A stretch of DNA of 36,557 bases from a virus (lineage: Duplodnaviria > Caudoviricetes), in the IMG/VR virus record IMGVR_UViG_3300024060_000003, positions 1-36,557 of that record. One strand, written 5' to 3'. Under the pieces are notes generated by a model that saw nothing but the letters and a program-made list of their open reading frames with translations, was not told the origin of the DNA and searched no databases. Position 1 is the first letter of the stretch. Each line of letters opens with the position of its first letter. Shown here piece by piece: positions 8,175 through 36,557 of this stretch. The position numbers were made by a program, and so were the translations under genes.

Positions 8175-9770
8175 ATGGGTCAGGTCATCTCCCTGAATTT
8201 TGGCCTGGTACACCAGCCGCCAAAGTTTGATTACGATTTCGACTTTGACGATCTCGACGATGAGATAAAAGAACAACTCCCCGAGGACACTGCTGAAGTA
8301 TTGCAGTTGTTCTCCGAGGAGGATCTGCACTTCCTGCGCTGGCGTATCTGCTGGCAGCGCATGGCGCGCAAGAAGCAACTGCCGCCTGAAGAATTTCTCT
8401 CGATGGAGAAGTTCATCTGGCTTATTCGGTCAGGTCGAGGCTTCGGTAAGACGCTTACTGGCGCGAACTGGCTGGGGGAACAGGCGTGGCTGGTCGCGAG
8501 TTTCTATGCAGTTATCTCTCCGACGCATGATGATGTTCGTTACACCTGCTTCGAGGGTCCAACCGGACTCCTGTCGGTCATTCCTCCGCAGCTTATTCAT
8601 GACCGGAACCAAGCTCTCCCCTCTATCACCTTAAAGAATGGATCAATCATTCGCGGGTTCGCAGGAGACACTCCCGAACGATTACGTGGACCGCAGCATG
8701 CAGCTATCTGGGCGGATGAGATTGCATCGTGGAAGTACCCTCAAGAGGCGTGGGACAACATCATGTTCGGTCTGCGTCTGGGTGAGACTCCACGCCTCTG
8801 CGTGACGGGTACGCCGAAACCGACACCGTTCATACGCAGGCTGCTGAAAGATAAACGTTGCGTGGACGTGGTCGGTTCGACGTACGAAAACCGCGAGAAC
8901 TTGACCGAGTACTTCTTCGAGTCCATCGCTAAGTACGAGGGCACGCGCGTTGGTCGGCAGGAAATCCATGGTGAGGTGCTGGATCCGGAGGAGGAGGGAT
9001 TCGTTCAGCGCAGTCAGTGGCGCGTTTGGCCTGCTGACAAGAAGCTACCGAAATTCACCTACATCGTCATGTCCATCGACCCCGCATTCAAAGAAAGGAA
9101 CTACGACAAGCGTAAGCAAGTGAGTGACCCAACAGCCTGCTCAGTGTGGGGTTTGTTCATGGTGCCTCGCCTGGGTAAACCTCCGATCCCGAATGCCATG
9201 CTATTGGACGCCTGGGAAGACTGGCTGGGGTTCCCGGCTTTGGTGCGGCGTATCAAGAAAGAGAGGAGCTACACCTATGGGGACACAGACGAGCCTTATC
9301 TGAAGCCTGTAGTTATCGCGAAACGTAAGCGCGCCAAGCATCAGGGGCGTAGGATTGACATCATCCTGATTGAAGAAAAAGCCTCCGGTATCTCTATCCG
9401 TCAACAGCTCGCGGAAGAGAACATCTTGACTCACGGGTACAATCCGGGTAATGAAGACAAGCTAACGAGACTTCATTACGTCTCGCCCATGTATGCAGCA
9501 GGAAGAGTATGGGCAGTTGAGTCCGAAGTAAATCCTGGAAACTTCAAAAGTTGGGCCGACCCACTGATATCGCAGGTGTGTTCTTACGTAGGTCCTGGGT
9601 CTACTGAGAGAGATGATTTGTTAGACACTTCTACCCAAGGGTTACGTCTTCTCATGGACAAATTCTTCGGACCCTTCACCATCGTCGATTCTGTCGAGGA
9701 TCGTGAACGAGCCCGTGCTCGTGAGATTGCTGAACGGCGACTGAGCAAAAAAGAGTCTCCATATGGCTGA
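8175..9770 (+). CDS. terL: terminase large subunit
   Basis: Walker A SGRGFGKT, Walker B IWADE, coupling motif TGTP, nuclease SIDPA...IEEKASG...DDLLD. Confidence 0.97.
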   Translation: MGQVISLNFGLVHQPPKFDYDFDFDDLDDEIKEQLPEDTAEVLQLFSEEDLHFLRWRICWQRMARKKQLPPEEFLSMEKFIWLIRSGRGFGKTLTGANWLGEQAWLVASFYAVISPTHDDVRYTCFEGPTGLLSVIPPQLIHDRNQALPSITLKNGSIIRGFAGDTPERLRGPQHAAIWADEIASWKYPQEAWDNIMFGLRLGETPRLCVTGTPKPTPFIRRLLKDKRCVDVVGSTYENRENLTEYFFESIAKYEGTRVGRQEIHGEVLDPEEEGFVQRSQWRVWPADKKLPKFTYIVMSIDPAFKERNYDKRKQVSDPTACSVWGLFMVPRLGKPPIPNAMLLDAWEDWLGFPALVRRIKKERSYTYGDTDEPYLKPVVIAKRKRAKHQGRRIDIILIEEKASGISIRQQLAEENILTHGYNPGNEDKLTRLHYVSPMYAAGRVWAVESEVNPGNFKSWADPLISQVCSYVGPGSTERDDLLDTSTQGLRLLMDKFFGPFTIVDSVEDRERARAREIAERRLSKKESPYG

Positions 9771-10119
9771 GCAGCCTCCCATTAAATTAGACGTTCCTTA
9801 CTTCATACATGATCCCGTAGATCATCTCCGTGCACTTAAGTGGTGTGAAGGGCACTGGGCAGAGCTAATGTTCGCCCTCAAAGATCGAGGCCTCGAGGAT
9901 CAGATCTCTCCGGACGCAGAAACACTGAACAAGAAATTCCTCGCCGGAGAATTGGATCCGTGTTGGGAAGCTTGCAACATGATCAACATGGGAGCACTGG
10001 AGTGCTTCGGACCTGACAAGATCATCAATGAGAATGCTGGGTGTCCTGTGTGTTCGTTCGCGAATATTACCGGGTATGTGTGTGATCTGATGACCGTAAA
10101 ATACGGGAGTTCTCACTAA
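9763..10119 (+). CDS. hypothetical protein between TerL and portal
   Basis: 118 aa, overlaps both neighbours, CxxH and CPVC motifs. Confidence 0.75.
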   Translation: MAEQPPIKLDVPYFIHDPVDHLRALKWCEGHWAELMFALKDRGLEDQISPDAETLNKKFLAGELDPCWEACNMINMGALECFGPDKIINENAGCPVCSFANITGYVCDLMTVKYGSSH

Positions 10120-12731
10120 TGGTCGAAGAAGTCGTAGGTGGAGTAGAAACATTTACCGATGTACCTGATGAGGTAATTGATACCGACGACGGAGGTGCCA
10201 TAGTCAGAGTCACCGACGATGTCCCGACCAAGATAAACAGAGAGTGGTACGACAACATCGCGGATGACTTCACCGATGAAGTACTAAACAAAATCGCAAC
10301 TCGACTGCTCGAGGATATTGAACGCGACAAGAAGGCTCGCGAGAAACGTGAAAAAGATTACGAAGAAGCGATCAAGCGCACCGGCTTAGGCAAGGAGACC
10401 CCCGGTGGTGCAGACTTCGAGGGCGCATCCAAAGCAGTGCATCCAATGCTTACAGAAGCTACGGTGGACTTCGCTGCGCGCGCTATCAAAGAACTTATGC
10501 CGCCTAATGGTCCCGTCAAAGTCTACGTCCCCGGTGACCATCCTGATGCAGACCGCTTTAAGAAAGGGGACCGTGTCAAGAATTACATGAACTGGCAGTT
10601 CCTGGTTCAGATGCCAGACTTCCGCACTGAGCTAGAGCAACTTTTGACCCAGACTCCATTAGGCGGATCGCAGTACATGCGACTTGTCTATGACGATAAG
10701 AAGAAACGTCCTGTTCCGACTTATTGGCCCAGCGACGATGTCTACATTCCCTACGCAGCTTCCAACTTTTACACCGCAGAACGTCTTACCTTCGTCGAAC
10801 ACATCACGGAGTTCGAGTTCAAGCAGCGTGTCAAGAGCAAGATGTACAAGGACTATGGTCCTGATATCGCAACGGTGTCCGGTGCTACTGAAGAGCTGAC
10901 TCGACCGGCGAAAGCAACGGCTGCTGTTGAAGGTAAGGATCCGGTTGCACCTTATAACGAAGACGGACTGCGAAACGAGTACGAGGTCAACTGTTGGTGC
11001 GATGACTTAGAAGATAAGTACGAGTACGCCCCTTATCGCATCACTATCGATGGTGCAAACCATAAAGTTGTTGCAGTCAATCGCAACTGGGAAGAGAACG
11101 ACGAGACCAAACAGCCACTGTACTGGGCAGTAGAGTTCCCATTCATACCTTGGCGCGGAGCGGGTTCCATTGGTCTCGGTCAAATGATTGGCTCCTTGTC
11201 GGGGGCGGCGACTGGTGCGCTCCGCGCCCTTTTAGATTCGGCACACATGAACAACTTGCCTACTTTGATTCGCCTCAAAGGGGCGAACTTCAGTGGACAG
11301 AGTAAAGAGCTACGTGTCGCTGCAGTGACTGAGATCGAAGGCGGCATTGCCGGTGATGACATTCGCAAGCTCATCATGCCGGTACCGTTTAACCAACCGT
11401 CGCCAGTTCTGCTTGAACTGTTGGGCGTCGTGGATAAGTTGGGTAGGGGTGTCGTTCAGACAACCTTCGAAAAATTAGGAGAGCAATCCACCCAAATGCC
11501 TGTAGGCACCACGCTAGCGCTTATCGAGGAAGGCATGACTGTCTTCAGCGCTATCCACCTGAGACTGTACTCAGCCATGGACAGGGTTATAAAAATCCTG
11601 TGCCGGATTAACCGGATGTACCTGGATGAGGACGAACTCAAAGACGACGTTGGAACTGTTCTTGCTTATCGAAAGGATTTCGATCCACCGCATGACATCA
11701 TGCCGGTGGCAGATCCGGAGATCTTCTCTGACGTTCAACGCATGGCACAATTGCAGGTCGTTGCAGATCGTGCCGCTGCGATGCCCGAGGTTTACAACGT
11801 CAAGGAAGTCGAGAAGCGTATTCTCGAGCGAACCAAGATTCCTAACCCTGATGAACTGCTTCTGCCTGACGATACGCCCCAGGAGCAAAACGCAGTTAAC
11901 GAGAATGCATCCATGAGCCTGGGCCGACCTGTGGCAGCATTCCCAGTGCAGGATCATTTAGCACATCTGCAGGTCCATTTGGATTACGCGATGTCGCCCG
12001 TGTTAGGACAGAATCCTCTGATTGCTCCACGGTTCATTCCGATGCTCATGGGGCACATCATCGAACACATCGCGTTTTACTACGTTGAATACAACGTTGA
12101 TCTGTTGCAAGCATCGTCAAACCTTAGTGATGAGCAGCTGAGGCAGGTCTTGCAACTTCACGATCCCGACGTACGCGCGGAAATGGACAAGAATCTTGCA
12201 ATGCAATCTCCGGATGTGATCCCTGCTATTGGAAAAGTTTTGTCAGGCGTCATGCCCGTGATTGAGCAGCTACAGCAAGTCATGCAGTCCTTCGAGCCTG
12301 AGCCGGAAACACCTCCGGTCGATCCGAATGCGATGGCTGCTATCGAGCAAGAGCGCGAGGCTGACGAGGCCCGAGATTCACGTGAGCGAGAACGAACTCA
12401 GTTGACCCTTGTGGATAAGCGCGAAGCGCGTGAGCACAAGACAGATCTGACCTTTATGGAGCTTGATGCCGAGGAGAAACAGAAGGCTCTAGATGCTGCC
12501 CAGGACGATGCTCTCAAAGCTAAAGAGTACGCTGCTCGACTCAAGGAGCTGGTAGAGCGCGAGCGGGCGGAGGACGAGCGTACTGTTATGGAGACCACTT
12601 CGCGCGAAGCCATGAATGCTGAGGACAATGCCACAGCACTTGAAATCGCAGGCGTCAAGGCAGTGACTGATCGGTCGAAGATCAAGTCGGGAGAGGGTGT
12701 AACAAACCCCCGACCACGCACGAGCACTTGA
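10119..12731 (+). CDS. portal protein (podovirus-type, long helical C-terminal extension)
   Basis: 870 aa after TerL; HPMLTEA..DFAARA..EL, YMNWQ, G.GL..MIG, PVGTTLALIE motifs typical of this portal type. Confidence 0.9.
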   Translation: MVEEVVGGVETFTDVPDEVIDTDDGGAIVRVTDDVPTKINREWYDNIADDFTDEVLNKIATRLLEDIERDKKAREKREKDYEEAIKRTGLGKETPGGADFEGASKAVHPMLTEATVDFAARAIKELMPPNGPVKVYVPGDHPDADRFKKGDRVKNYMNWQFLVQMPDFRTELEQLLTQTPLGGSQYMRLVYDDKKKRPVPTYWPSDDVYIPYAASNFYTAERLTFVEHITEFEFKQRVKSKMYKDYGPDIATVSGATEELTRPAKATAAVEGKDPVAPYNEDGLRNEYEVNCWCDDLEDKYEYAPYRITIDGANHKVVAVNRNWEENDETKQPLYWAVEFPFIPWRGAGSIGLGQMIGSLSGAATGALRALLDSAHMNNLPTLIRLKGANFSGQSKELRVAAVTEIEGGIAGDDIRKLIMPVPFNQPSPVLLELLGVVDKLGRGVVQTTFEKLGEQSTQMPVGTTLALIEEGMTVFSAIHLRLYSAMDRVIKILCRINRMYLDEDELKDDVGTVLAYRKDFDPPHDIMPVADPEIFSDVQRMAQLQVVADRAAAMPEVYNVKEVEKRILERTKIPNPDELLLPDDTPQEQNAVNENASMSLGRPVAAFPVQDHLAHLQVHLDYAMSPVLGQNPLIAPRFIPMLMGHIIEHIAFYYVEYNVDLLQASSNLSDEQLRQVLQLHDPDVRAEMDKNLAMQSPDVIPAIGKVLSGVMPVIEQLQQVMQSFEPEPETPPVDPNAMAAIEQEREADEARDSRERERTQLTLVDKREAREHKTDLTFMELDAEEKQKALDAAQDDALKAKEYAARLKELVERERAEDERTVMETTSREAMNAEDNATALEIAGVKAVTDRSKIKSGEGVTNPRPRTST

Positions 12732-13711: not shown

Positions 13712-14737
13712 ATGGCCCCCGAAAACGAAGCCGTCACAACAGACGAAGAACAAGAAGAAGAGTTCGTTGCCGTCGAGCAAGAGCCTGGGAAAGAGACTCA
13801 GCAGGCTGCTGGCGACGATGAGCACGAGGAGGGCGAAGGGGAAGAGGAAGAGCAGGACGAGCGTCTCGCCGCTGACCAAGAAGATGAGGACGATAAAAAG
13901 GAGCGACGCCGCTCTGAGAATAAATCCCGTCGTCAGCGTCAGAAAGAAGCACGCGACCGTACTGAGCGTGAACTAAAGTTCCTGCAGAATCGCAACGAGG
14001 AACTGGAGCGACGCTTCAGTCACTTCGAGCAGGAGACAGACGCACGTGTCACTGGCAGCGAAATTGCCAGTATCGATGTATCCATTAACAAAGCTCGATC
14101 TGATATGCAACTTGCTAATCAGGTCATTGAGCAGGCTGTAACAGCACAGGACGGTAAGAACCTTGCTGAGGCTCTCACTCATAGAGACACCATTCGTGAT
14201 GACCTCCGCGATCTTGAGCAGGCTAAAGGTTACCTCGCTAATAACTCGCGTAGAGGTGAGTCACCTGTTCAGCAACAGCTCGATCCGCGTCACGTTGCTC
14301 ACGCACAGAAGTTCATGATCGACAATGAGTGGTGGGATCCAAGTGGGCGCGACCCGGATTCGAAGATTGTGCTAGATATCGACCGCTCATTGGTTCAAGA
14401 AGGCTATCAGCCTGCAACCAAAGATTACTGGGACGAGCTACGGGCTCGTTCCGCAAAAGCATTACCGAAGCGGTTCGAGTCCCGAACCGGTTCACGCGAG
14501 GATGGGGATGGTGGAGAGGGGTCCGGTAACGGACAACAGAAGCCAACCGGTGCTCGTGGGCCTCAGTTCCGAACTGGTGGGCGGGAACGTCCGTTGAAGA
14601 AGAATGAGGTTTATATCAGCCCCGAAAGAAAAGAAGCTATGATCGAGGCTGGTGTATGGGACGATCCAGTGCTCCGTAACAAATACCTGAAGTCGTACGC
14701 GACGTACGATCAAGAGGCAACGGCGGAGGGAGCATAA
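13712..14737 (+). CDS. putative capsid scaffolding protein
   Basis: Acidic disordered N-terminus, coiled coil, short helical C-terminus; upstream of MCP; SD AGGAG. Confidence 0.7.
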   Translation: MAPENEAVTTDEEQEEEFVAVEQEPGKETQQAAGDDEHEEGEGEEEEQDERLAADQEDEDDKKERRRSENKSRRQRQKEARDRTERELKFLQNRNEELERRFSHFEQETDARVTGSEIASIDVSINKARSDMQLANQVIEQAVTAQDGKNLAEALTHRDTIRDDLRDLEQAKGYLANNSRRGESPVQQQLDPRHVAHAQKFMIDNEWWDPSGRDPDSKIVLDIDRSLVQEGYQPATKDYWDELRARSAKALPKRFESRTGSREDGDGGEGSGNGQQKPTGARGPQFRTGGRERPLKKNEVYISPERKEAMIEAGVWDDPVLRNKYLKSYATYDQEATAEGA

Positions 14738-14739
14738 TC

Positions 14740-15324
14740 ATGGTAGCAAAACGTAGAACCGACACGAGACTGAATTCCGATCAATCGGGAGTACGCGTTG
14801 ATCGTCACATGACAGATAGGAATGTGACGCAAAACCGCGAGCTGTCAGACGATGAACGGGTGGCTGAGTTTCGCCAGCAGTACTTTCAATCTGCATTGCC
14901 AGACATTCCGAAGATCAAGGGTTACCACGTTTGTTGGCTGACCACGGAAAATCCCCGAGACCCGATTCATGCGCGGGTTCGCCTGGGTTATGAGCCGATT
15001 AAGGCATCGGACATTCCTGGGTGGAACCATTCAGAGCTTAAAACGGGCGAGTGGGCAGGCTGCATTGGTGTAAACGAGATGATCGCTTTCAAGCTTCCTC
15101 TCGAATTGTACGAACAGTACATGCGCATCAATCATCATGAGGCACCTCTCAACGAAGAGGAAAAACTCAGCAGTCAACTCCGTGCGATGGAAGCTGAGAT
15201 GAACGCCGCAACGAAGCGCGGCAAAGTAAGTCTAGAACTTGAGGATGGCACAGCAGCGTTGGGAGTGGCACCGGAGCCACCTCCTTTCGCACTTGCGACT
15301 GGAGAGGCACCGGATGACATTTAA
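14740..15324 (+). CDS. head-module hypothetical protein
   Basis: 194 aa, SD GGAG; P...GYHVCWL...LGYEP pattern. Confidence 0.8.
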   Translation: MVAKRRTDTRLNSDQSGVRVDRHMTDRNVTQNRELSDDERVAEFRQQYFQSALPDIPKIKGYHVCWLTTENPRDPIHARVRLGYEPIKASDIPGWNHSELKTGEWAGCIGVNEMIAFKLPLELYEQYMRINHHEAPLNEEEKLSSQLRAMEAEMNAATKRGKVSLELEDGTAALGVAPEPPPFALATGEAPDDI

Positions 15325-15933: not shown

Positions 15934-16863
15934 ATGGCAGTTCCAATGAGATCCACTGACTTTAGGTCAATAGTGGAACCGATCCTGAACGAGACATTTG
16001 ACGGGATCTACACGCAACGCGCCGACGAATGGAAAGGCGTCTTCAAAGAACGCACGGGTACCCCCCGTTCGTACCACGAAGAGCCGGTCCTGTTCGGTTT
16101 CAACGCTGCACCTGAGATGCCTGACGGCACTCCGGTCACGTTCGACGCAGGCGGAGTGCTGTTTATTCAGCGCTACGTCTACAAGGTCTTCGGTTTGGCG
16201 TTCGCGCTGACCAAGGTCTTGGTCGAAGATGGCGATCACATCCGCATCGGTCGAATCTACTCCGAGCATCTCGCTCAGAGCATGATCGAAACGAAGGAAA
16301 CGTTATGCGCGAATATTCTAAATCGCGCGTTCAACGGTGCCTTCGTCGGTGGTGATGGGGTAGCACTCACCGTGACAAACCATCCGATTGCGCCAGGAGG
16401 CTCAGCGGGTGGGGTGTTCTCGAACCTACTGACGACTGCTGCGGCTCTGTCGCAAACGTCACTTGAGCAGCTGCTCATTCAGATTCGCAATGCCGTGGAC
16501 AACAACGGTAAGCGGATTCGTTTGCAGCCTCTCAAGATCGTCACGGGTCCGAGTCAGGTGTTCCAGTCGGAAGTCCTCTTGAAGTCTGTCCTGCGTGCAG
16601 GAACGGCTAACAATGACATCAACCCGATCCTGTCCATGGGGCTTCTGTCTCAGGGTCAGGCTAACTTGTCGCGTATCACTTCAACGACTGCATGGTGGAT
16701 CCTGACGGATGCTCCACGTGGTCTGCAGATGATGATGCGACGTGGGTTGGAGAAGTCAATGGAAGGCGACTTCGAAACCGACTCTATGCGTTACAAGTCC
16801 ACGGAACGTTACATTCCGGATTGGACTGATCCGCGCATCATCTTCGGCACACCTGGACTCTAA
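15934..16863 (+). CDS. major capsid protein (HK97 fold, Mu gpT-like family)
   Basis: 309 aa, perfect SD AAAGGAGG; DG.P..FD, LAQSM.ETKE...ANILN.AF, GGDGVAL, DFETDSMRYK..ERY...WTDPR. Confidence 0.92.
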   Translation: MAVPMRSTDFRSIVEPILNETFDGIYTQRADEWKGVFKERTGTPRSYHEEPVLFGFNAAPEMPDGTPVTFDAGGVLFIQRYVYKVFGLAFALTKVLVEDGDHIRIGRIYSEHLAQSMIETKETLCANILNRAFNGAFVGGDGVALTVTNHPIAPGGSAGGVFSNLLTTAAALSQTSLEQLLIQIRNAVDNNGKRIRLQPLKIVTGPSQVFQSEVLLKSVLRAGTANNDINPILSMGLLSQGQANLSRITSTTAWWILTDAPRGLQMMMRRGLEKSMEGDFETDSMRYKSTERYIPDWTDPRIIFGTPGL

Positions 16864-22469: not shown

Positions 22470-23207
22470 ATGACTAAGAACGTTGGACTGACATATGTGA
22501 AGGAATTCACATTCCCAGCGGAGCAAGGCTTCACCGGTTCCGCTTCTTCAGCGGGCGTACACCAAGTTAAGGGTTACCAACGTGGTGGACGTGTGAGGAA
22601 GATGGCTGAAGGTGGCAAATTCGGCAAGCCCGGTGACAAGTACCCGACGCTGAAGTCTGGACCTGCGGGTGCAAGGTCGGCGATGCCGAAGAACGTCAAG
22701 AGGCACGGTGGCCCGGTGAAGAAGCAGATGGGCGGCTACATGGGACCGGAGCGTGAGATCCAAGTCGATGACGTGAAGATCACGACACCTAGAGCCCATG
22801 GTGGCTCCGTGCACGACAGGCTCCGGCATGAAGGCGCGAAGATGGGTTACGCCTATGGTGGTCAGGTGAAAGAGAGTGACACCTCCGGCGAGTTCAAGAT
22901 GACGAAGGGCAAGCAGGCCACCATGGACACGGGTGTTCAGCCCGCACGCAAGGGTCGCAATCAGCAAGAGATCGAAGCTGGCGGCACCAAGCGACTGAAA
23001 CCTGGGTACAACAAAGGTGGTGGTGTCCACAGCGTGCGGCGGCTGCATAAAGTAATAGCAGCGGACATGCGACGTGCGTTGAAGGGAATTAGCGGAAAGA
23101 TATCTAAGGAAGATCGTGCGGCTGCGCGTCGGGTAGCTGCAGGAAAAGGGATGCCCAAGGGTGTGAAGGCCAGAGGTGGACTCGCGAGATACGCAAGAGG
23201 CAGTTAA
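22470..23207 (+). CDS. basic low-complexity protein with repeated xxxGG motifs
   Basis: SD AGGAG; YQRGG, MAEGG, KRHGG, KQMGG, RAHGG, YAYGG, YNKGG, KARGG. Confidence 0.85.
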   Translation: MTKNVGLTYVKEFTFPAEQGFTGSASSAGVHQVKGYQRGGRVRKMAEGGKFGKPGDKYPTLKSGPAGARSAMPKNVKRHGGPVKKQMGGYMGPEREIQVDDVKITTPRAHGGSVHDRLRHEGAKMGYAYGGQVKESDTSGEFKMTKGKQATMDTGVQPARKGRNQQEIEAGGTKRLKPGYNKGGGVHSVRRLHKVIAADMRRALKGISGKISKEDRAAARRVAAGKGMPKGVKARGGLARYARGS

Positions 23208-32619: not shown

Positions 32620-34593
32620 ATGGCGAAAAGACGAGACGTACACACCGCACCGAATCCTCGAGAGAGGGCGATCATGTCTGATCTCAAGCCTCAAGGTGGC
32701 CTGGGACAGATGCTTGCACAGCAAGGTGCCGATCCAAAACTGTTAGAAGCTGTAGCAGAAGTCGAAGGGATGCCGGGTGGCATGGAGCTTCTCTACACCG
32801 TTGCAGCGGAAGATCTGATGAAAGGTGCAGGCGCGTCGAAGAAGGATGCGAAGAAGATTCGTCTCTACAAACTCGGCGGACCTGTTCGTCGCGCCAAAGG
32901 CGGAGCTGTCCGACAAGCAGCAGAGACAACTCGACGAGCAGGACGTGGTGATGACTCCATGATGCTGCACGTGAGCCCTGAAGAGTACGAAGTCATTGAA
33001 GCCATGTGGGGTAAGGCTGAGATCAATCCGGAGACCGGCATTGGTGAGTACGGATTCCTTAGCAAAGTGTGGAAAAAAATTAAGAAGACTGTGAAGAAGA
33101 TTGTTAAGTCAGATATTTTCCAGATCGTTGCCCCCATCGCACTATCGATCTTTGTTCCTGGTCTAGGTACTGCCATTGGTAGCGCACTGGGAGCCTCTGG
33201 TGCTGCGGCGAGCGTAATCGGTAATGCCCTCGTGCAGGGCGGACTGAGTGCAGCAGGAGGTGGTGACTTCCTGGAAGGCGCACTCTCCGGTGCGATCACG
33301 GGAGGTCTCGGTGAGGTTGCAGGTGGTGCGATCCAGAAGGTTGCACCGGGTCTCTCTGACAGTACTGCAGCCATCATTGGATCGAGCTTGGCGGGAGGCA
33401 CGGCATCTTCATTGACCGGCGGCGAATTCATGGAAGGTGCACTTGCCGGAGGTCTCGGCGAGATGATGCGACCGTCGATGGAAAGCCTCACTGAGATGGG
33501 GCAGAGAACATTTGGCGTTCAGGACCCGACAGGTGGTGGCATTCTGGCTGAGCGAGTTCCTCAACGGAGCTTGACTGAGATTGATCTAGCGACAATTCCT
33601 CCACGGATGGGTGGTGCTGAGCAGGCCTTTGTTGGGCCACCTGCTCCAGGAGTAGACCCTTACGGGCCTGGAGGGGGAAGAGGCAACGTACCCTCGGCTG
33701 TTCTTTCAGAGACGGGAGTGGCTGCAGCTCCGTCCGTTACTCCCGCGCCTGTGCCTGACGTCACTCCGCCCGCAGAAGGAGGTACAGATTTGATGCAGTA
33801 CGCACTCCCGGCGATGATGATGCTGGGCTCACAAAGCGCGTACGAAGAAGCTGTGCCACCTGAAATGCCACCGTGGATGACGGAGTCGCTGCCGATCTAC
33901 GAGATGAACCGACAATTCCAAGGCCTGGATCCCAATGCGTACTACACATACGGACAGGCAGGTGCCTCCCAGTCTGGACAGCATCTGTTCATGACCCCGG
34001 AGCCTTTCGCCGGAGAGGTTGGTACTCCAACAGTCGGACCAACGGGTGGTCTAGGGCTTGGAGATCTTGCCCAGCTGATCGCTTCAGGTCAGGTCGTTCC
34101 AGCCGCCATGGGTGAGACCGGAGGAGTGCAGCTGCAGGGCGCAGGCTACCGGCAGGATCCCAACACGGGCGACTGGCTCCCACCGCAACAGCAGCTGGGG
34201 CAAGGCCTGCCCCGAGCCCGTGGAGGCTACCAACGTGGAGGGGAGTTTGACTATTGGTCGCAGAATGCTGATGTTCCACGTGCAGCCCCCTCAGTGGCCG
34301 CGTCAGGGCGTTATGTTAAAGGGGCGGGCACTGGCAGGTCAGACGACATCCCAGCCCGCCTGAGCGACGGTGAGTACGTCATGGACGCAGAATCGGTGGC
34401 ACTCCTGGGTGACGGTTCCGGGGATGCTGGGGCTCGACGGCTCGACGAGATGCGTAGCAATCTCCGCAAGCACAAAGCCAAGAATCTGATGAAGGGTGGC
34501 TTCAGCCACAAGGCAAAGAAACCACACCAGTACATGGCAGGTGGAGGCATTGCCAGCCTCCGTCGAGCGGCGACTGAAGCAGGGAGAGCGTAA
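32620..34593 (+). CDS. putative internal virion / DNA ejection protein
   Basis: 657 aa, Gly/Ala-rich hydrophobic region, INPETG.GEY, GAGTGRSDDIPARLSDGEYV domain; follows tail hub gene. Confidence 0.7.
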   Translation: MAKRRDVHTAPNPRERAIMSDLKPQGGLGQMLAQQGADPKLLEAVAEVEGMPGGMELLYTVAAEDLMKGAGASKKDAKKIRLYKLGGPVRRAKGGAVRQAAETTRRAGRGDDSMMLHVSPEEYEVIEAMWGKAEINPETGIGEYGFLSKVWKKIKKTVKKIVKSDIFQIVAPIALSIFVPGLGTAIGSALGASGAAASVIGNALVQGGLSAAGGGDFLEGALSGAITGGLGEVAGGAIQKVAPGLSDSTAAIIGSSLAGGTASSLTGGEFMEGALAGGLGEMMRPSMESLTEMGQRTFGVQDPTGGGILAERVPQRSLTEIDLATIPPRMGGAEQAFVGPPAPGVDPYGPGGGRGNVPSAVLSETGVAAAPSVTPAPVPDVTPPAEGGTDLMQYALPAMMMLGSQSAYEEAVPPEMPPWMTESLPIYEMNRQFQGLDPNAYYTYGQAGASQSGQHLFMTPEPFAGEVGTPTVGPTGGLGLGDLAQLIASGQVVPAAMGETGGVQLQGAGYRQDPNTGDWLPPQQQLGQGLPRARGGYQRGGEFDYWSQNADVPRAAPSVAASGRYVKGAGTGRSDDIPARLSDGEYVMDAESVALLGDGSGDAGARRLDEMRSNLRKHKAKNLMKGGFSHKAKKPHQYMAGGGIASLRRAATEAGRA

Positions 34594-35870
34594 TGCCAAC
34601 TAACTTAGACTTTCTATTTGAGGGCAAGCCTCCGCAAGCGGTCACAACCTATGGGCAAACTGTGGAGGGCGTTCCGAAGTGGATGTCCGACTACACGCAG
34701 GGGCTGATTGCACGAGCCAACGCAGCGGCAGCTGAGCCCTACATCCCATACGGTGGACCGAGGATCGCTGGCTTTTCGCCGGAGCAGGAAGCTGCGTTCG
34801 GTATGGTCGAGGAGAACGTCGGCGCGTACCAGCCCTTCCTCGAAGCAGGTGCTGGAGCCGTTGGCGGAGGACTGCGAGCTGCTGCCAACATCGCACAGTC
34901 AGCTGACCCTTACCTCCAACAGGCAACAGGAAGTTTCACCGATCCCGGCGTCGCTCAACAGTACATGGATCCGTACATCCAGAACGTGCTGGCTCGTCAA
35001 GCAGAGGAGTCCGGTCGTCAACTTACGGAGCGATTCATACCAGCGTTGCAAGGTGCATTCACTGGAGCGGGTCAGTTCGGATCTCGTGGTGGCTTTGGTT
35101 CGATGCAAGACATCGGTACACGTGGTGTAAGAGAGATCGCTGAAGGTCTGCAGGGACAACAGCTGGCAGCTCTTTCGGGAGCCTATGCTGACGCGGGTAC
35201 ACGGTACGAAGCAGAGCGCGGACGCTACGGACGACTGGCAACCACACGAGGTGCCCTCGAAGAAGCAACTGCAGCTTCGCAGTTCGCCGGAGCCACAACA
35301 GCGGGCCGACTAGGTGAGTTCGCACAACAAGCAGGTCTCACTGATGCCGCTGCGCTGGAGTCGATTGGTATACAGACGCAAGGGATGGATCAGAGAAGTA
35401 TGGATCTCGCCTACGCAGATTTCCTGGAGCAACGGGACCTGCCAATGGAACGGGTCGGATTCATGTCAGACGTCATCCGAGGCATGCCAGATCCAGGTCG
35501 AGTTTCAACAACAACGGAGGTAGGACCGGCTTCTATCTATCAGCCGTCAGGTCTGTCGCAGATTGTCGGTGGCTACGGTGTGTACCGAGGTCTGCAAGGA
35601 GACGCAAGGGGCGGCTACATCGACAGGCCTCGTTACGCAAGAGGTGGATATATAGATGGCGAGTACGAAGACGTCACCGGCTATGCAGACGGAGGCTACG
35701 TCGATGCAGACGGTTACCAATTCGGTGGACTAGCAGCGGCAGCAGGTCGAGGCATCGTGGGAGCTGGTAGAAAAATAATCGACTGGGCACGAAGTCTTTA
35801 TCCGGATCCCGGTCGAGGCATCGGTGTGGCTGGAGGTCATAACCTGACGTTGACGCACAAGCAGGACTGA
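34593..35870 (+). CDS. putative internal virion / DNA ejection (pilot) protein
   Basis: 425 aa Q/A/G-rich helical; Y.GPRIA.F...Q..A, YMDPY.Q.V, AG.FGSR. Confidence 0.7.
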   Translation: MPTNLDFLFEGKPPQAVTTYGQTVEGVPKWMSDYTQGLIARANAAAAEPYIPYGGPRIAGFSPEQEAAFGMVEENVGAYQPFLEAGAGAVGGGLRAAANIAQSADPYLQQATGSFTDPGVAQQYMDPYIQNVLARQAEESGRQLTERFIPALQGAFTGAGQFGSRGGFGSMQDIGTRGVREIAEGLQGQQLAALSGAYADAGTRYEAERGRYGRLATTRGALEEATAASQFAGATTAGRLGEFAQQAGLTDAAALESIGIQTQGMDQRSMDLAYADFLEQRDLPMERVGFMSDVIRGMPDPGRVSTTTEVGPASIYQPSGLSQIVGGYGVYRGLQGDARGGYIDRPRYARGGYIDGEYEDVTGYADGGYVDADGYQFGGLAAAAGRGIVGAGRKIIDWARSLYPDPGRGIGVAGGHNLTLTHKQD

Positions 35871-35871
35871 G

Positions 35872-36557
35872 ATGAGATCGACCTCTTTTAGGTCAGTTGT
35901 AGAGCCTAGGTTTCAGCAAGGAGGCGCAGCTCAAGCGGCTGGCGTTCGCGATCCTGCGCGAACGAGGCAATTGCTTGCCGATTACCTGGGGCGTGAGCCT
36001 GAGTCTTTAGTCCTCGATCCTGGTGGGGGAGGTGCTTTGAGGGCAGCGCAATCGTTCGTCACACCTTCTGGACAAGTGATAATGGGGGCTCCTTCACAGT
36101 CCAGGTCGATGCAGGCCTTACGGGGAGCCTTGTCTGACATGGAAATCTCGAACGTGCGTCGTAGGGGACGAGTAGATCCTAGGATGGCAGATACGTACAT
36201 GCATCTACTCGTCAGGACACAGGGCAAGAAGCGCGCTGAAGATACGCTGGATGAGCAGTCGCGTGAGGAGGGTGGAGAAGGTGGTCGAATCCTGCAGTAT
36301 TCCGGTGGTGCACTGGAGTGGGTACCTAACGGACCCGGTGGGATACCACAGCCACCAACAGGCGACACGTTCTACGATCCGATAAAGGAAGCACAAGATA
36401 GAGTAGCGAGAGACGAGTACATGAGACTTAACCCACGTCCTCCAATGACGGACGAGAGACGGGCATCGATACGGCAGGCATTCGGTCGCACTCCGGTGTC
36501 GGACGAGGATCGCGCGAAATTAGCACGAGGTGGAATTGTGAGATCAGAAGTGGAACG
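35872..36557 (+). CDS. putative internal virion protein, partial (runs off window; not in track)
   Basis: ATG 35872 with SD CAGGA; frame open to the window end; MRSTSFRSVVEPRFQQGG... Confidence 0.8.
   Translation, partial: MRSTSFRSVVEPRFQQGGAAQAAGVRDPARTRQLLADYLGREPESLVLDPGGGGALRAAQSFVTPSGQVIMGAPSQSRSMQALRGALSDMEISNVRRRGRVDPRMADTYMHLLVRTQGKKRAEDTLDEQSREEGGEGGRILQYSGGALEWVPNGPGGIPQPPTGDTFYDPIKEAQDRVARDEYMRLNPRPPMTDERRASIRQAFGRTPVSDEDRAKLARGGIVRSEVE

What the first reader, a model, noticed from the sequence alone, without database searches (positions are those of the whole stretch)
35872..35925. Putative ejection protein starts with a copy of the major capsid protein N-terminal peptide, followed by a GG motif: candidate capsid-addressing tag
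Seen: the last ORF begins MRSTSFRSVVEP, and MCP residues 5-16 (15946-15981) are MRSTDFRSIVEP, 10/12 identical. The DNA matches at 26/36 nt. Five of the ten conserved residues use different synonymous codons (Ser, Thr, Val, Glu, Pro), while the Arg codons AGA and AGG are shared, pointing to common ancestry followed by selection on the peptide. Similarity stops abruptly and is followed directly by RFQQGG, the motif seen in the other internal proteins. Known: T4 internal proteins use an N-terminal capsid-targeting sequence that is removed by proteolysis, and HK97-fold N-arms mediate scaffold/subunit contacts. Inference: the cargo mimics the capsid N-arm to be recruited to the procapsid (by scaffold or MCP), and may then be released by cleavage at GG.
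Basis: partly seen in the sequence, partly recalled or inferred. Interest (0 to 1): 0.85.

Follow-up and report, generated by a model that had tools for sequence, protein, structure and literature searches.

The report
Swappable capsid-mimic leader on ejection protein
A marine phage starts a likely injected protein with a 12-residue copy of its own capsid protein's N-terminal arm; the copy shows the signature of selection, yet most relatives carry other leaders, so it is likely an optional tag that would help load the protein into the forming head.

Summary
The last ORF begins MRSTSFRSVVEP, 10/12 identical to major capsid protein (MCP) residues 5-16, far beyond chance. An independent contig spans the junction with no difference. 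Five other orthologues keep the leader while their cores share only 26-32% identity between groups. Synonymous sites are near saturation and amino acids are kept (pS 0.82, pN 0.11). A diverged version heads 2 of 45 members of a second cargo family. Against an essential role: only 5 of 104 orthologue rows carry it, they are not one clade, and near-identical relatives use other leaders. Co-variation with MCP cannot be tested, because the MCP arm is nearly invariant (86 of 89 rows). The 26/36 DNA match does not prove ancestry (P=0.15). No protease for GG cleavage was identified. Best reading (about 50%): a selected, optional N-arm mimic that would bind the scaffold or another N-arm receptor in the procapsid. 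Binding is untested. This scan noted MCP-N-terminus copies before on other DNA (8 unchecked notes).

The parts
35872..35907 (+). MCP-like leader, MRSTSFRSVVEP (type A leader)
   Evidence: positions M1 R2 S3 T4 F6 R7 V10 E11 P12 invariant in 6 tagged orthologues including the window
35908..35925 (+). RFQQGG, first [FYM][AQK]xGG motif, closing the leader; sequences switch between alleles just after it
   Evidence: loose ends after 35916 and 35929 in contigs of runs X2, X3, X4, X5, X12
35863..35866 (+). AGGA ribosome-binding site inside the last codons of the upstream gene
   Evidence: sequence; same context in tagged and untagged relatives
35872..36555 (+). Tagged ORF, cut by the record end at 228 aa; closest full-length orthologue P0001 is 654 aa; putative ejection protein
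   Evidence: gene block position; next gene in relative L106 hits phrog_770 DNA transfer protein
35926..36519 (+). Optional insert module (WVPNGPGG..PQP.TGD.FYDPI core) flanked by GG motifs; present in 27 of 104 orthologue rows
   Evidence: no family found
36520..36555 (+). Second GG motif (LARGG) followed by RSEVE, an internal copy of the common type B leader
15946..15981 (+). MCP residues 5-16, start of the predicted N-arm helix (H5-29)
   Evidence: nearly invariant in the clade
15934..16863 (+). Major capsid protein, HK97 fold
   Evidence: PF25209 from residue 6; Foldseek hits to encapsulins and phage capsids, best E 4e-8
13712..14737 (+). Putative scaffolding protein with a conserved C-terminal domain; candidate receptor of the leader
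   Evidence: position between GroES and MCP genes (inference, no family hit); C-terminal conservation in 40 rows
34593..35870 (+). Upstream putative ejection (pilot) gene with GG motifs; used as anchor to collect relatives
32620..34593 (+). Putative ejection protein with GG motifs and a segment shared with tape-measure proteins
22470..23207 (+). Basic 245-aa protein with repeated GG motifs; putative internal head protein

Best explanation
The 12-residue leader is a selected copy of the capsid protein's N-terminal arm that likely works as an optional loading tag: it would bind the site that normally holds the capsid N-arm in the procapsid, most likely the scaffolding protein, and so would raise the amount of this putative ejection protein built into the head. 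Shown: the sequence match, its N-terminal position, protein-level conservation with saturated synonymous sites, its scatter over unrelated core lineages, and exchange of leaders right at the start codon and of downstream modules right after the GG motif. Predicted: MCP residues 5-29 form the N-arm helix. Inferred: that the carrier is an ejection protein, that gene 13712 is the scaffold, that the leader binds it, and that loading rises. The leader is one of several interchangeable cassettes in front of a [FY]QxGG motif, so basic loading must rest on something else, possibly the GG motifs or the core. Whether GG is a cut site is open.
For: Match beyond chance. Tag versus own MCP pS 0.82, pN 0.11, Fisher p 4e-4 on rounded sites; the other tag and MCP pairs give pS 0.14-0.95 against pN 0-0.19. 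Window-type and L106-type tags are each closer to MCP (10/12, 11/12) than to each other (9/12). Tag kept in P0001, P0002, P0003, P0028, P0038, whose cores share 26-32% identity between groups. P0002 starts MAGKVRST, the same register as MCP MAVPMRST. A contig in runs X2 and X3 keeps the tag at 40/44 nt while the letters directly before and after it differ from the window. A diverged tag (MSVNFAELVEPR-MFQxGG) heads 2 of 45 members of a second, large cargo family and scores 27 against MCP 6-16, versus at most 15 for 247 other N-termini. The window's two substitutions occur in MCP homologues (V in 26 of 55 rows; S in Caulobacter phage RW). Literature (passages read): scaffolds contact the coat N-arm in P22 (bioRxiv 10.1101/2022.12.13.520362) and 80alpha (PMC5644958); P22 ejection proteins need scaffold, and the N-terminal parts of gp7 and gp20 are held responsible for loading (PMC8402733).
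Against: Only 5 of 104 orthologue rows carry the tag; 33 have MR[ASN]E[VSA]E, 40 a short leader before [FY]xxGG, 24 neither, 2 are fragments. P0038's sister P0014 is 97% identical in the core and lacks it. A contig in run X4 joins a near-identical upstream gene end to a type B leader. None of 7 GenBank relatives shows a self-copy of its MCP arm in the regions fetched (best 6-7/12). Tag and own MCP differ at D/S and I/V, where 12 of 12 closest MCP rows have D and I. The D in the arm, the kind of residue that binds scaffold in P22, is replaced in 4 of 6 tags. The selection test rests on 12 codons. In P22 the ejection proteins depend on the scaffold's N-terminal and middle regions, not on its coat-binding domain.
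Confidence: 0.5

Rival explanations
1. Captured relic: the 5' end of the MCP gene recombined into a hypervariable leader slot, helped by similar DNA at the R-S-x-V-E codons, and persists as one tolerated leader among many with little or no binding function.
For: 95% of orthologue rows lack it; leader classes change at least 33 times on the tree; the window's internal type B copy and the MCP arm share similar DNA at R-S-x-V-E; leaders swap at the start codon within populations.
Against: Synonymous saturation with amino-acid retention; three distinct tag variants stay within 1-2 substitutions of MCP; a diverged form is kept on a second family in two proteins 69% identical over the part compared.
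Confidence: 0.2
2. Shared recognition site for a folding or processing machine rather than an address: the peptide is read by the phage GroES/host GroEL system or by a protease that handles both MCP and the cargo.
For: A GroES gene lies in the head module and in the cultured relatives fetched. A shared N-terminal protease motif on capsid and scaffold of staphylococcal phage 80alpha is recalled, not confirmed (the term was absent from PMC5644958).
Against: MCP has only 4 residues before the motif and the motif is part of a predicted structural helix, so cleavage there would damage the fold; MCP has no GG motif after it; GroES does not select substrates by short motifs (own knowledge).
Confidence: 0.12
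3. N-arm mimic with another receptor or timing: the leader docks on the portal vertex or on the expanded capsid interior after scaffold exit, positioning the protein for ejection rather than loading it.
For: Same sequence evidence as the best explanation; P22 ejection proteins must find new sites after scaffold leaves (PMC8402733); a crAss001 cargo domain binds the portal (PMC10172136).
Against: Nothing here distinguishes receptors; in P22 the portal is not needed for loading.
Confidence: 0.12
4. Host-facing decoy: the leader (or the short peptide freed at GG) enters the host early and occupies a defence sensor that recognises the capsid protein.
For: Patchy, rapidly swapped distribution fits host-dependent selection; capsid-sensing defence systems are recalled, not looked up.
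Against: A mimic of a trigger would be expected to fire the defence; the N-arm is among the most invariant parts of MCP, which points to an assembly role; no defence data here.
Confidence: 0.06

Closest known systems
Phage T4 capsid targeting sequence (CTS) of IPI-III (PMC9026906, passages read)
   Same: Short N-terminal peptide on a head-internal, injected protein, followed by a candidate processing site; portable between cargos.
   Different: The passages read describe CTS as shared among internal proteins and removed by gp21; they do not describe it as a copy of gp23. Here the leader copies the MCP arm, sits on one known protein per genome, is absent from most relatives, and no protease was identified.
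Phage P22 ejection proteins gp7/gp16/gp20 loaded through scaffold (PMC8402733, section 4.1 read whole plus passages)
   Same: Same gene-block logic (three to four ejection genes after the nozzle); N-terminal parts drive loading; scaffold is required.
   Different: No coat-like peptide is described in the parts read; P22 scaffold uses regions other than its coat-binding domain for ejection proteins.
Phage P1 DarB N-terminal packaging signal (PMC9024508, passages read)
   Same: N-terminal 10-30 residues suffice to load a reporter into the capsid.
   Different: Myovirus antirestriction protein; no resemblance to MCP stated in the passages read.
HTVC023P/CRP-901-type and Caulobacter RW-like phages (PMC10149686, two passages read)
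   Same: Same head module (terminase, portal, GroES, putative scaffold, two unknown genes, MCP); RW MCP is 76% identical.
   Different: The cultured members fetched carry no self-copy of the MCP arm and P0001 has no tblastn match in the phage collection.

Membership tests
T4-type capsid targeting sequence | Short (10-19 aa) N-terminal peptide on an internal protein | tested here: met
   12-18 aa at a supported start codon; internal location is inferred from gene position
T4-type capsid targeting sequence | Shared by several internal proteins of the same phage | tested here: inconclusive
   One carrier among 33 window proteins and one in L106; both records are incomplete; a second family carries a diverged form in another lineage
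T4-type capsid targeting sequence | Sufficient to load a foreign protein into heads | not testable with these tools
   needs a reporter fusion
T4-type capsid targeting sequence | Removed by a phage prohead protease | tested here: inconclusive
   No peptidase family in 29 window proteins or 57 proteins of G009; the conserved 194-aa head gene matched no fold
P22-like ejection (DNA transfer) proteins | Encoded in the block after adaptor and nozzle genes, next to a DNA transfer protein | tested here: met
   PF24175 adaptor and phrog_3287 upstream; next gene in L106 hits phrog_770, E 8e-16
P22-like ejection (DNA transfer) proteins | Sequence membership of PF16928 or another ejection family | tested here: inconclusive
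   No Pfam or PHROG hit for P0001, P0002, P0028; nearest named Atlas cluster PF16928 at 0.84, a lead only
P22-like ejection (DNA transfer) proteins | Present in virions and ejected on infection | not testable with these tools
   uncultured phage
HK97-fold MCP N-arm (donor of the leader) | Copied segment lies in the N-terminal arm helix of an HK97-fold protein | tested here: met
   helix 5-29 in model (pLDDT block 11-20: 84; residues 1-5 under 50); HK97-fold hits
HK97-fold MCP N-arm (donor of the leader) | Leader co-varies with own MCP arm | tested here: inconclusive
   arm is MRSTDFRS[IV]VEP in 86 of 89 clade rows; only the window holds both tag and MCP (one search found no MCP in the L106 or L125 records)

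The most novel reading that the evidence does not exclude
This widespread marine phage clade runs a modular postal system for head cargo: [FYM][AQK]xGGx[VA] motifs mark the joints of all internal proteins (cut sites for an unrecognised protease, or multivalent docking repeats), and swappable leaders in front of the first motif set loading strength. The strongest leader is a direct copy of the capsid N-arm that hijacks the scaffold, and the common MR[AS]EVE leader is its eroded descendant, so more than a third of orthologues (38 of 104) would carry capsid-derived tags.
Probability: 0.2. Interest if true: 0.75.

Novelty: new variant of a known kind. Interest (0 to 1): 0.52.

Why it matters
How ejection proteins are addressed to the procapsid is unresolved even in P22 (PMC8402733, section 4.1). 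If the leader works, it gives a 12-residue, structurally interpretable loading signal whose receptor can be predicted from the capsid protein, and natural tagged and untagged alleles with near-identical cores (P0038 versus P0014, 97%) make a ready control pair. It would also show a simple evolutionary route to new cargo: copy the 5' end of the capsid gene. A cultured relative with a 76% identical MCP (Caulobacter phage RW) makes a test feasible.

Tried and rejected
Pattern searches: RSTxFRS[IV]VEP + 4 residues + GG gave 0 viral stretches; MRSTxFRx[IV]VEPR gave 1; NFAELVEP gave 5, of which only the L125 record was a real gene and none an MCP; VEPRx[FY]QxGG gave 7, of which 2 were the known records; the metagenome scan gave 20, of which 4 were tagged genes (one apparently the window's own record), 1 an interrupted MCP gene and 15 off-frame or chance matches. 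The truncated ORF found no relative in viral contigs and the L125 protein only itself. A 22-aa tblastn found nothing, not even MCPs known to match, so it is uninformative. No solved structure matched MCP by sequence. The 194-aa head gene was folded as a protease candidate; no fold match beyond a long helix, which does not exclude a peptidase. A portal segment resembling the MCP arm (7/12 in RW) was rejected: off-target hits reach 7/12 in other genomes. Descent of type B leaders from the MCP arm is inconclusive: in the register fixed by the tag they rank 2nd to 23rd of 301 MCP 9-mers. A GG cut site before the scaffold's C-terminal domain was rejected as general: it is not conserved. No RNA holder was listed. 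The careful tree did not finish; the quick tree was used. Literature searches listed no paper on an MCP-arm copy in an ejection protein or on this GG motif; the library lacks most subscription papers, and no supplements were read.

Full report
Observation. The last ORF (35872 to the record end) begins MRSTSFRSVVEPRFQQGG, and MCP residues 5-16 read MRSTDFRSIVEP. Among 33 window proteins this is the best 12-mer pair; the next are 8/12. The chance of 10 or more matches is 1e-11 per comparison and about 5e-4 over all pairs. The start codon has an AGGA site and follows the upstream stop directly. A contig from another study spans 35853-36314 with no difference. The DNA match does not exceed what the protein match predicts (P=0.15), so it does not by itself show common ancestry.

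What the phage and the protein are. The window is the whole held record, 36,557 bases. It encodes terminase, portal, GroES, a putative scaffold, an HK97-fold MCP, an SU10-type adaptor, a nozzle-like protein and then a block of putative ejection genes. MCP is 76% identical to Caulobacter phages RW/GB2A and about 40% to CRP-901 and HTVC023P. The runs that I laid are marine, sediment, subsurface or unlabelled metagenomes by their records. The tagged ORF has no family hit. Its full-length orthologue P0001 has 654 aa. The next gene in relative L106 hits phrog_770, DNA transfer protein, and the nearest named Atlas cluster is PF16928 at 0.84, a lead only. Ejection function is therefore inferred from gene position. 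The protein is built as leader-GG-insert-GG-spacer-GG-core; the insert is present in 27 of 104 rows.

The leader in relatives. Of 45 loci collected with the upstream gene, 41 gave a readable downstream ORF, and one (L106) starts with the tag. Protein searches added P0001, P0002, P0003 and P0038. For the tree I took proteins of 370 aa or more among P0001-P0099 plus 25 locus ORFs, removed duplicates and dropped 7 rows without the anchor motif. Of the 104 rows left, 5 have the MCP-like leader (A), 33 have MR[ASN]E[VSA]E (B), 40 a short leader before [FY]xxGG (C), 24 neither (D, which includes some likely mis-called starts) and 2 are fragments. In the six tagged proteins, window included, M1 R2 S3 T4 F6 R7 V10 E11 P12 R13 Q15 G17 G18 are invariant, while the window ORF shares 55%, 41% and 38% identity with P0001-P0003. 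Tagged cores fall in three groups 26-32% identical to each other, and one clade is rejected on a 26-row subset (AU p 4e-52, LG+G4). P0038's sister P0014 is 97% identical in the core and lacks the tag. Laid contigs show the same thing inside populations: the tag with different letters on both sides (runs X2, X3), the tag with the P0001 continuation (X2, X3, X4, X5, X12), and a near-identical upstream gene end joined to a B leader (X4). The leader is thus a swappable cassette and is not required in this family.

Selection. Tag versus own MCP gives 7 synonymous changes in 8.5 sites and 3 non-synonymous in 27.5 (pS 0.82, pN 0.11; Fisher p 4e-4 on rounded sites). DNA was available for four tags; the two close pairs differ only synonymously (2 and 1 changes). 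The window type and the L106 type are each nearer to MCP than to each other. P0002 begins MAGKVRST, in register with MCP MAVPMRST. A second family of large GG-punctuated proteins carries MSVNFAELVEPRMFQxGG in 2 of 45 members; it scores 27 against MCP 6-16, versus 7 for the next MCP segment and at most 15 for 247 other N-termini. The sample is small, but all of it points to selection for an MCP-like peptide.

Co-variation. The proposed test cannot be run in this clade. The MCP arm is MRSTDFRS[IV]VEP in 86 of 89 rows (one duplicate), with two further rows from another clade. No other tagged record holds its MCP. In the window the tag differs from its own MCP at D/S and I/V, where the 12 closest MCP rows all have D and I; both substitutions occur elsewhere in the MCP family. 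Seven GenBank relatives with other or similar arms show no self-copy in the regions fetched.

The GG motif. It reads [FYM][AQK]xGGx[VA] in 338 instances from proteins with three or more copies. A related pattern occurs 13 times in 1,555 aa of four putative internal proteins and twice in 6,655 aa of 19 others, with groups chosen after inspection. It flanks the insert and recurs at wide spacing in the large cargo proteins. This fits a cut site or a repeated docking motif. No peptidase family was hit in 29 window proteins or in 57 of 67 ORFs called in G009, a 96% complete relative (the 10 left out were duplicates or antisense ORFs). The conserved 194-aa head gene matched no known fold. Cleavage is therefore neither supported nor excluded.

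Mechanism. MCP residues 5-29 form a predicted N-terminal helix. In P22 and 80alpha the scaffold's C-terminal part contacts the coat N-arm (bioRxiv 10.1101/2022.12.13.520362 and PMC5644958, passages). P22 ejection proteins need scaffold for loading, and N-terminal parts of gp7 and gp20 are held responsible (PMC8402733, passages and section 4.1). T4 and P1 use short N-terminal targeting peptides (PMC9026906, PMC9024508, passages). I therefore commit to an optional N-arm mimic that binds the N-arm receptor in the procapsid, most likely the scaffold, and raises loading (0.5). Against it stand its rarity, the loss of the arm's Asp in 4 of 6 tags, and the P22 result that ejection proteins use scaffold regions other than the coat-binding domain. 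Rivals are a tolerated recombination relic (0.2), a chaperonin or protease recognition site (0.12), docking at portal or mature shell (0.12) and a host-defence decoy (0.06).

Novelty. It works like a capsid targeting sequence but is not shown to be one. Nine literature searches (listings only, apart from the seven papers cited by passage, which include PMC10149686 and PMC10172136) listed no report of an MCP-arm copy on an ejection protein or of this GG motif; the library is incomplete and no supplements were read. This scan's own notes list eight MCP-N-terminus copies in other genomes; they are unchecked and I did not use them as support. None concerned this genome or look-alike sequence. What is particular here is that the tag is an optional cassette with natural tagged and untagged near-twins and a second carrier family. 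Verdict: new variant of a known kind, interest 0.52.

Noticed in passing
L168:3362-3585: An MCP gene of the same family is interrupted right after the Pro16 codon by an insert of about 224 nt; the upstream part ends in T, the insert ends in G and the frame resumes at ILNEVFDG. Possibly a self-splicing intron; Rfam gave no hit.
   Followed up: partly
window 22470-23207, 32620-36555; L106:15409-17064; P0210-P0254: Repeated [FYM][AQK]xGGx[VA] motifs in putative internal proteins across the clade, up to eight per protein, marking module joints; the segment after one motif in gene 32620 hits tape-measure PHROGs.
   Followed up: partly
window 14740-15324: Conserved 194-aa head gene between scaffold and cement genes with invariant His63, Trp66, Glu113, His132; confident core model but no fold match.
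   Followed up: partly
window 35926-36519: Optional insert module with a conserved WVPNGPGG..PQP.TGD.FYDPI core, scattered over the family tree; no family or fold found.
   Followed up: partly
L108:11281-11313: Leader MRTPMR before FQEGG resembles the MATPMR start of MCPs in other lineages; may be chance, and a public call starts the protein at the second Met.
   Followed up: no
window 10119-12731, around residue 180: Portal segment DFRTELEQLL resembles both the MCP arm and type B leaders; at chance level in the tests run.
   Followed up: partly
L096, L097, L098, L100, L101, L109, L111, L112, just after the pilot gene: In several relatives the pilot gene stops early and 127-176 nt follow; where printed, this stretch still ends in codons for KQD plus stop, as the longer alleles do. 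A conserved ribosome-binding context or a small separate ORF.
   Followed up: no
window 9763-10119: 118-aa Cys/His-rich gene between terminase and portal, found by BLAST only in the three closest loci.
   Followed up: no
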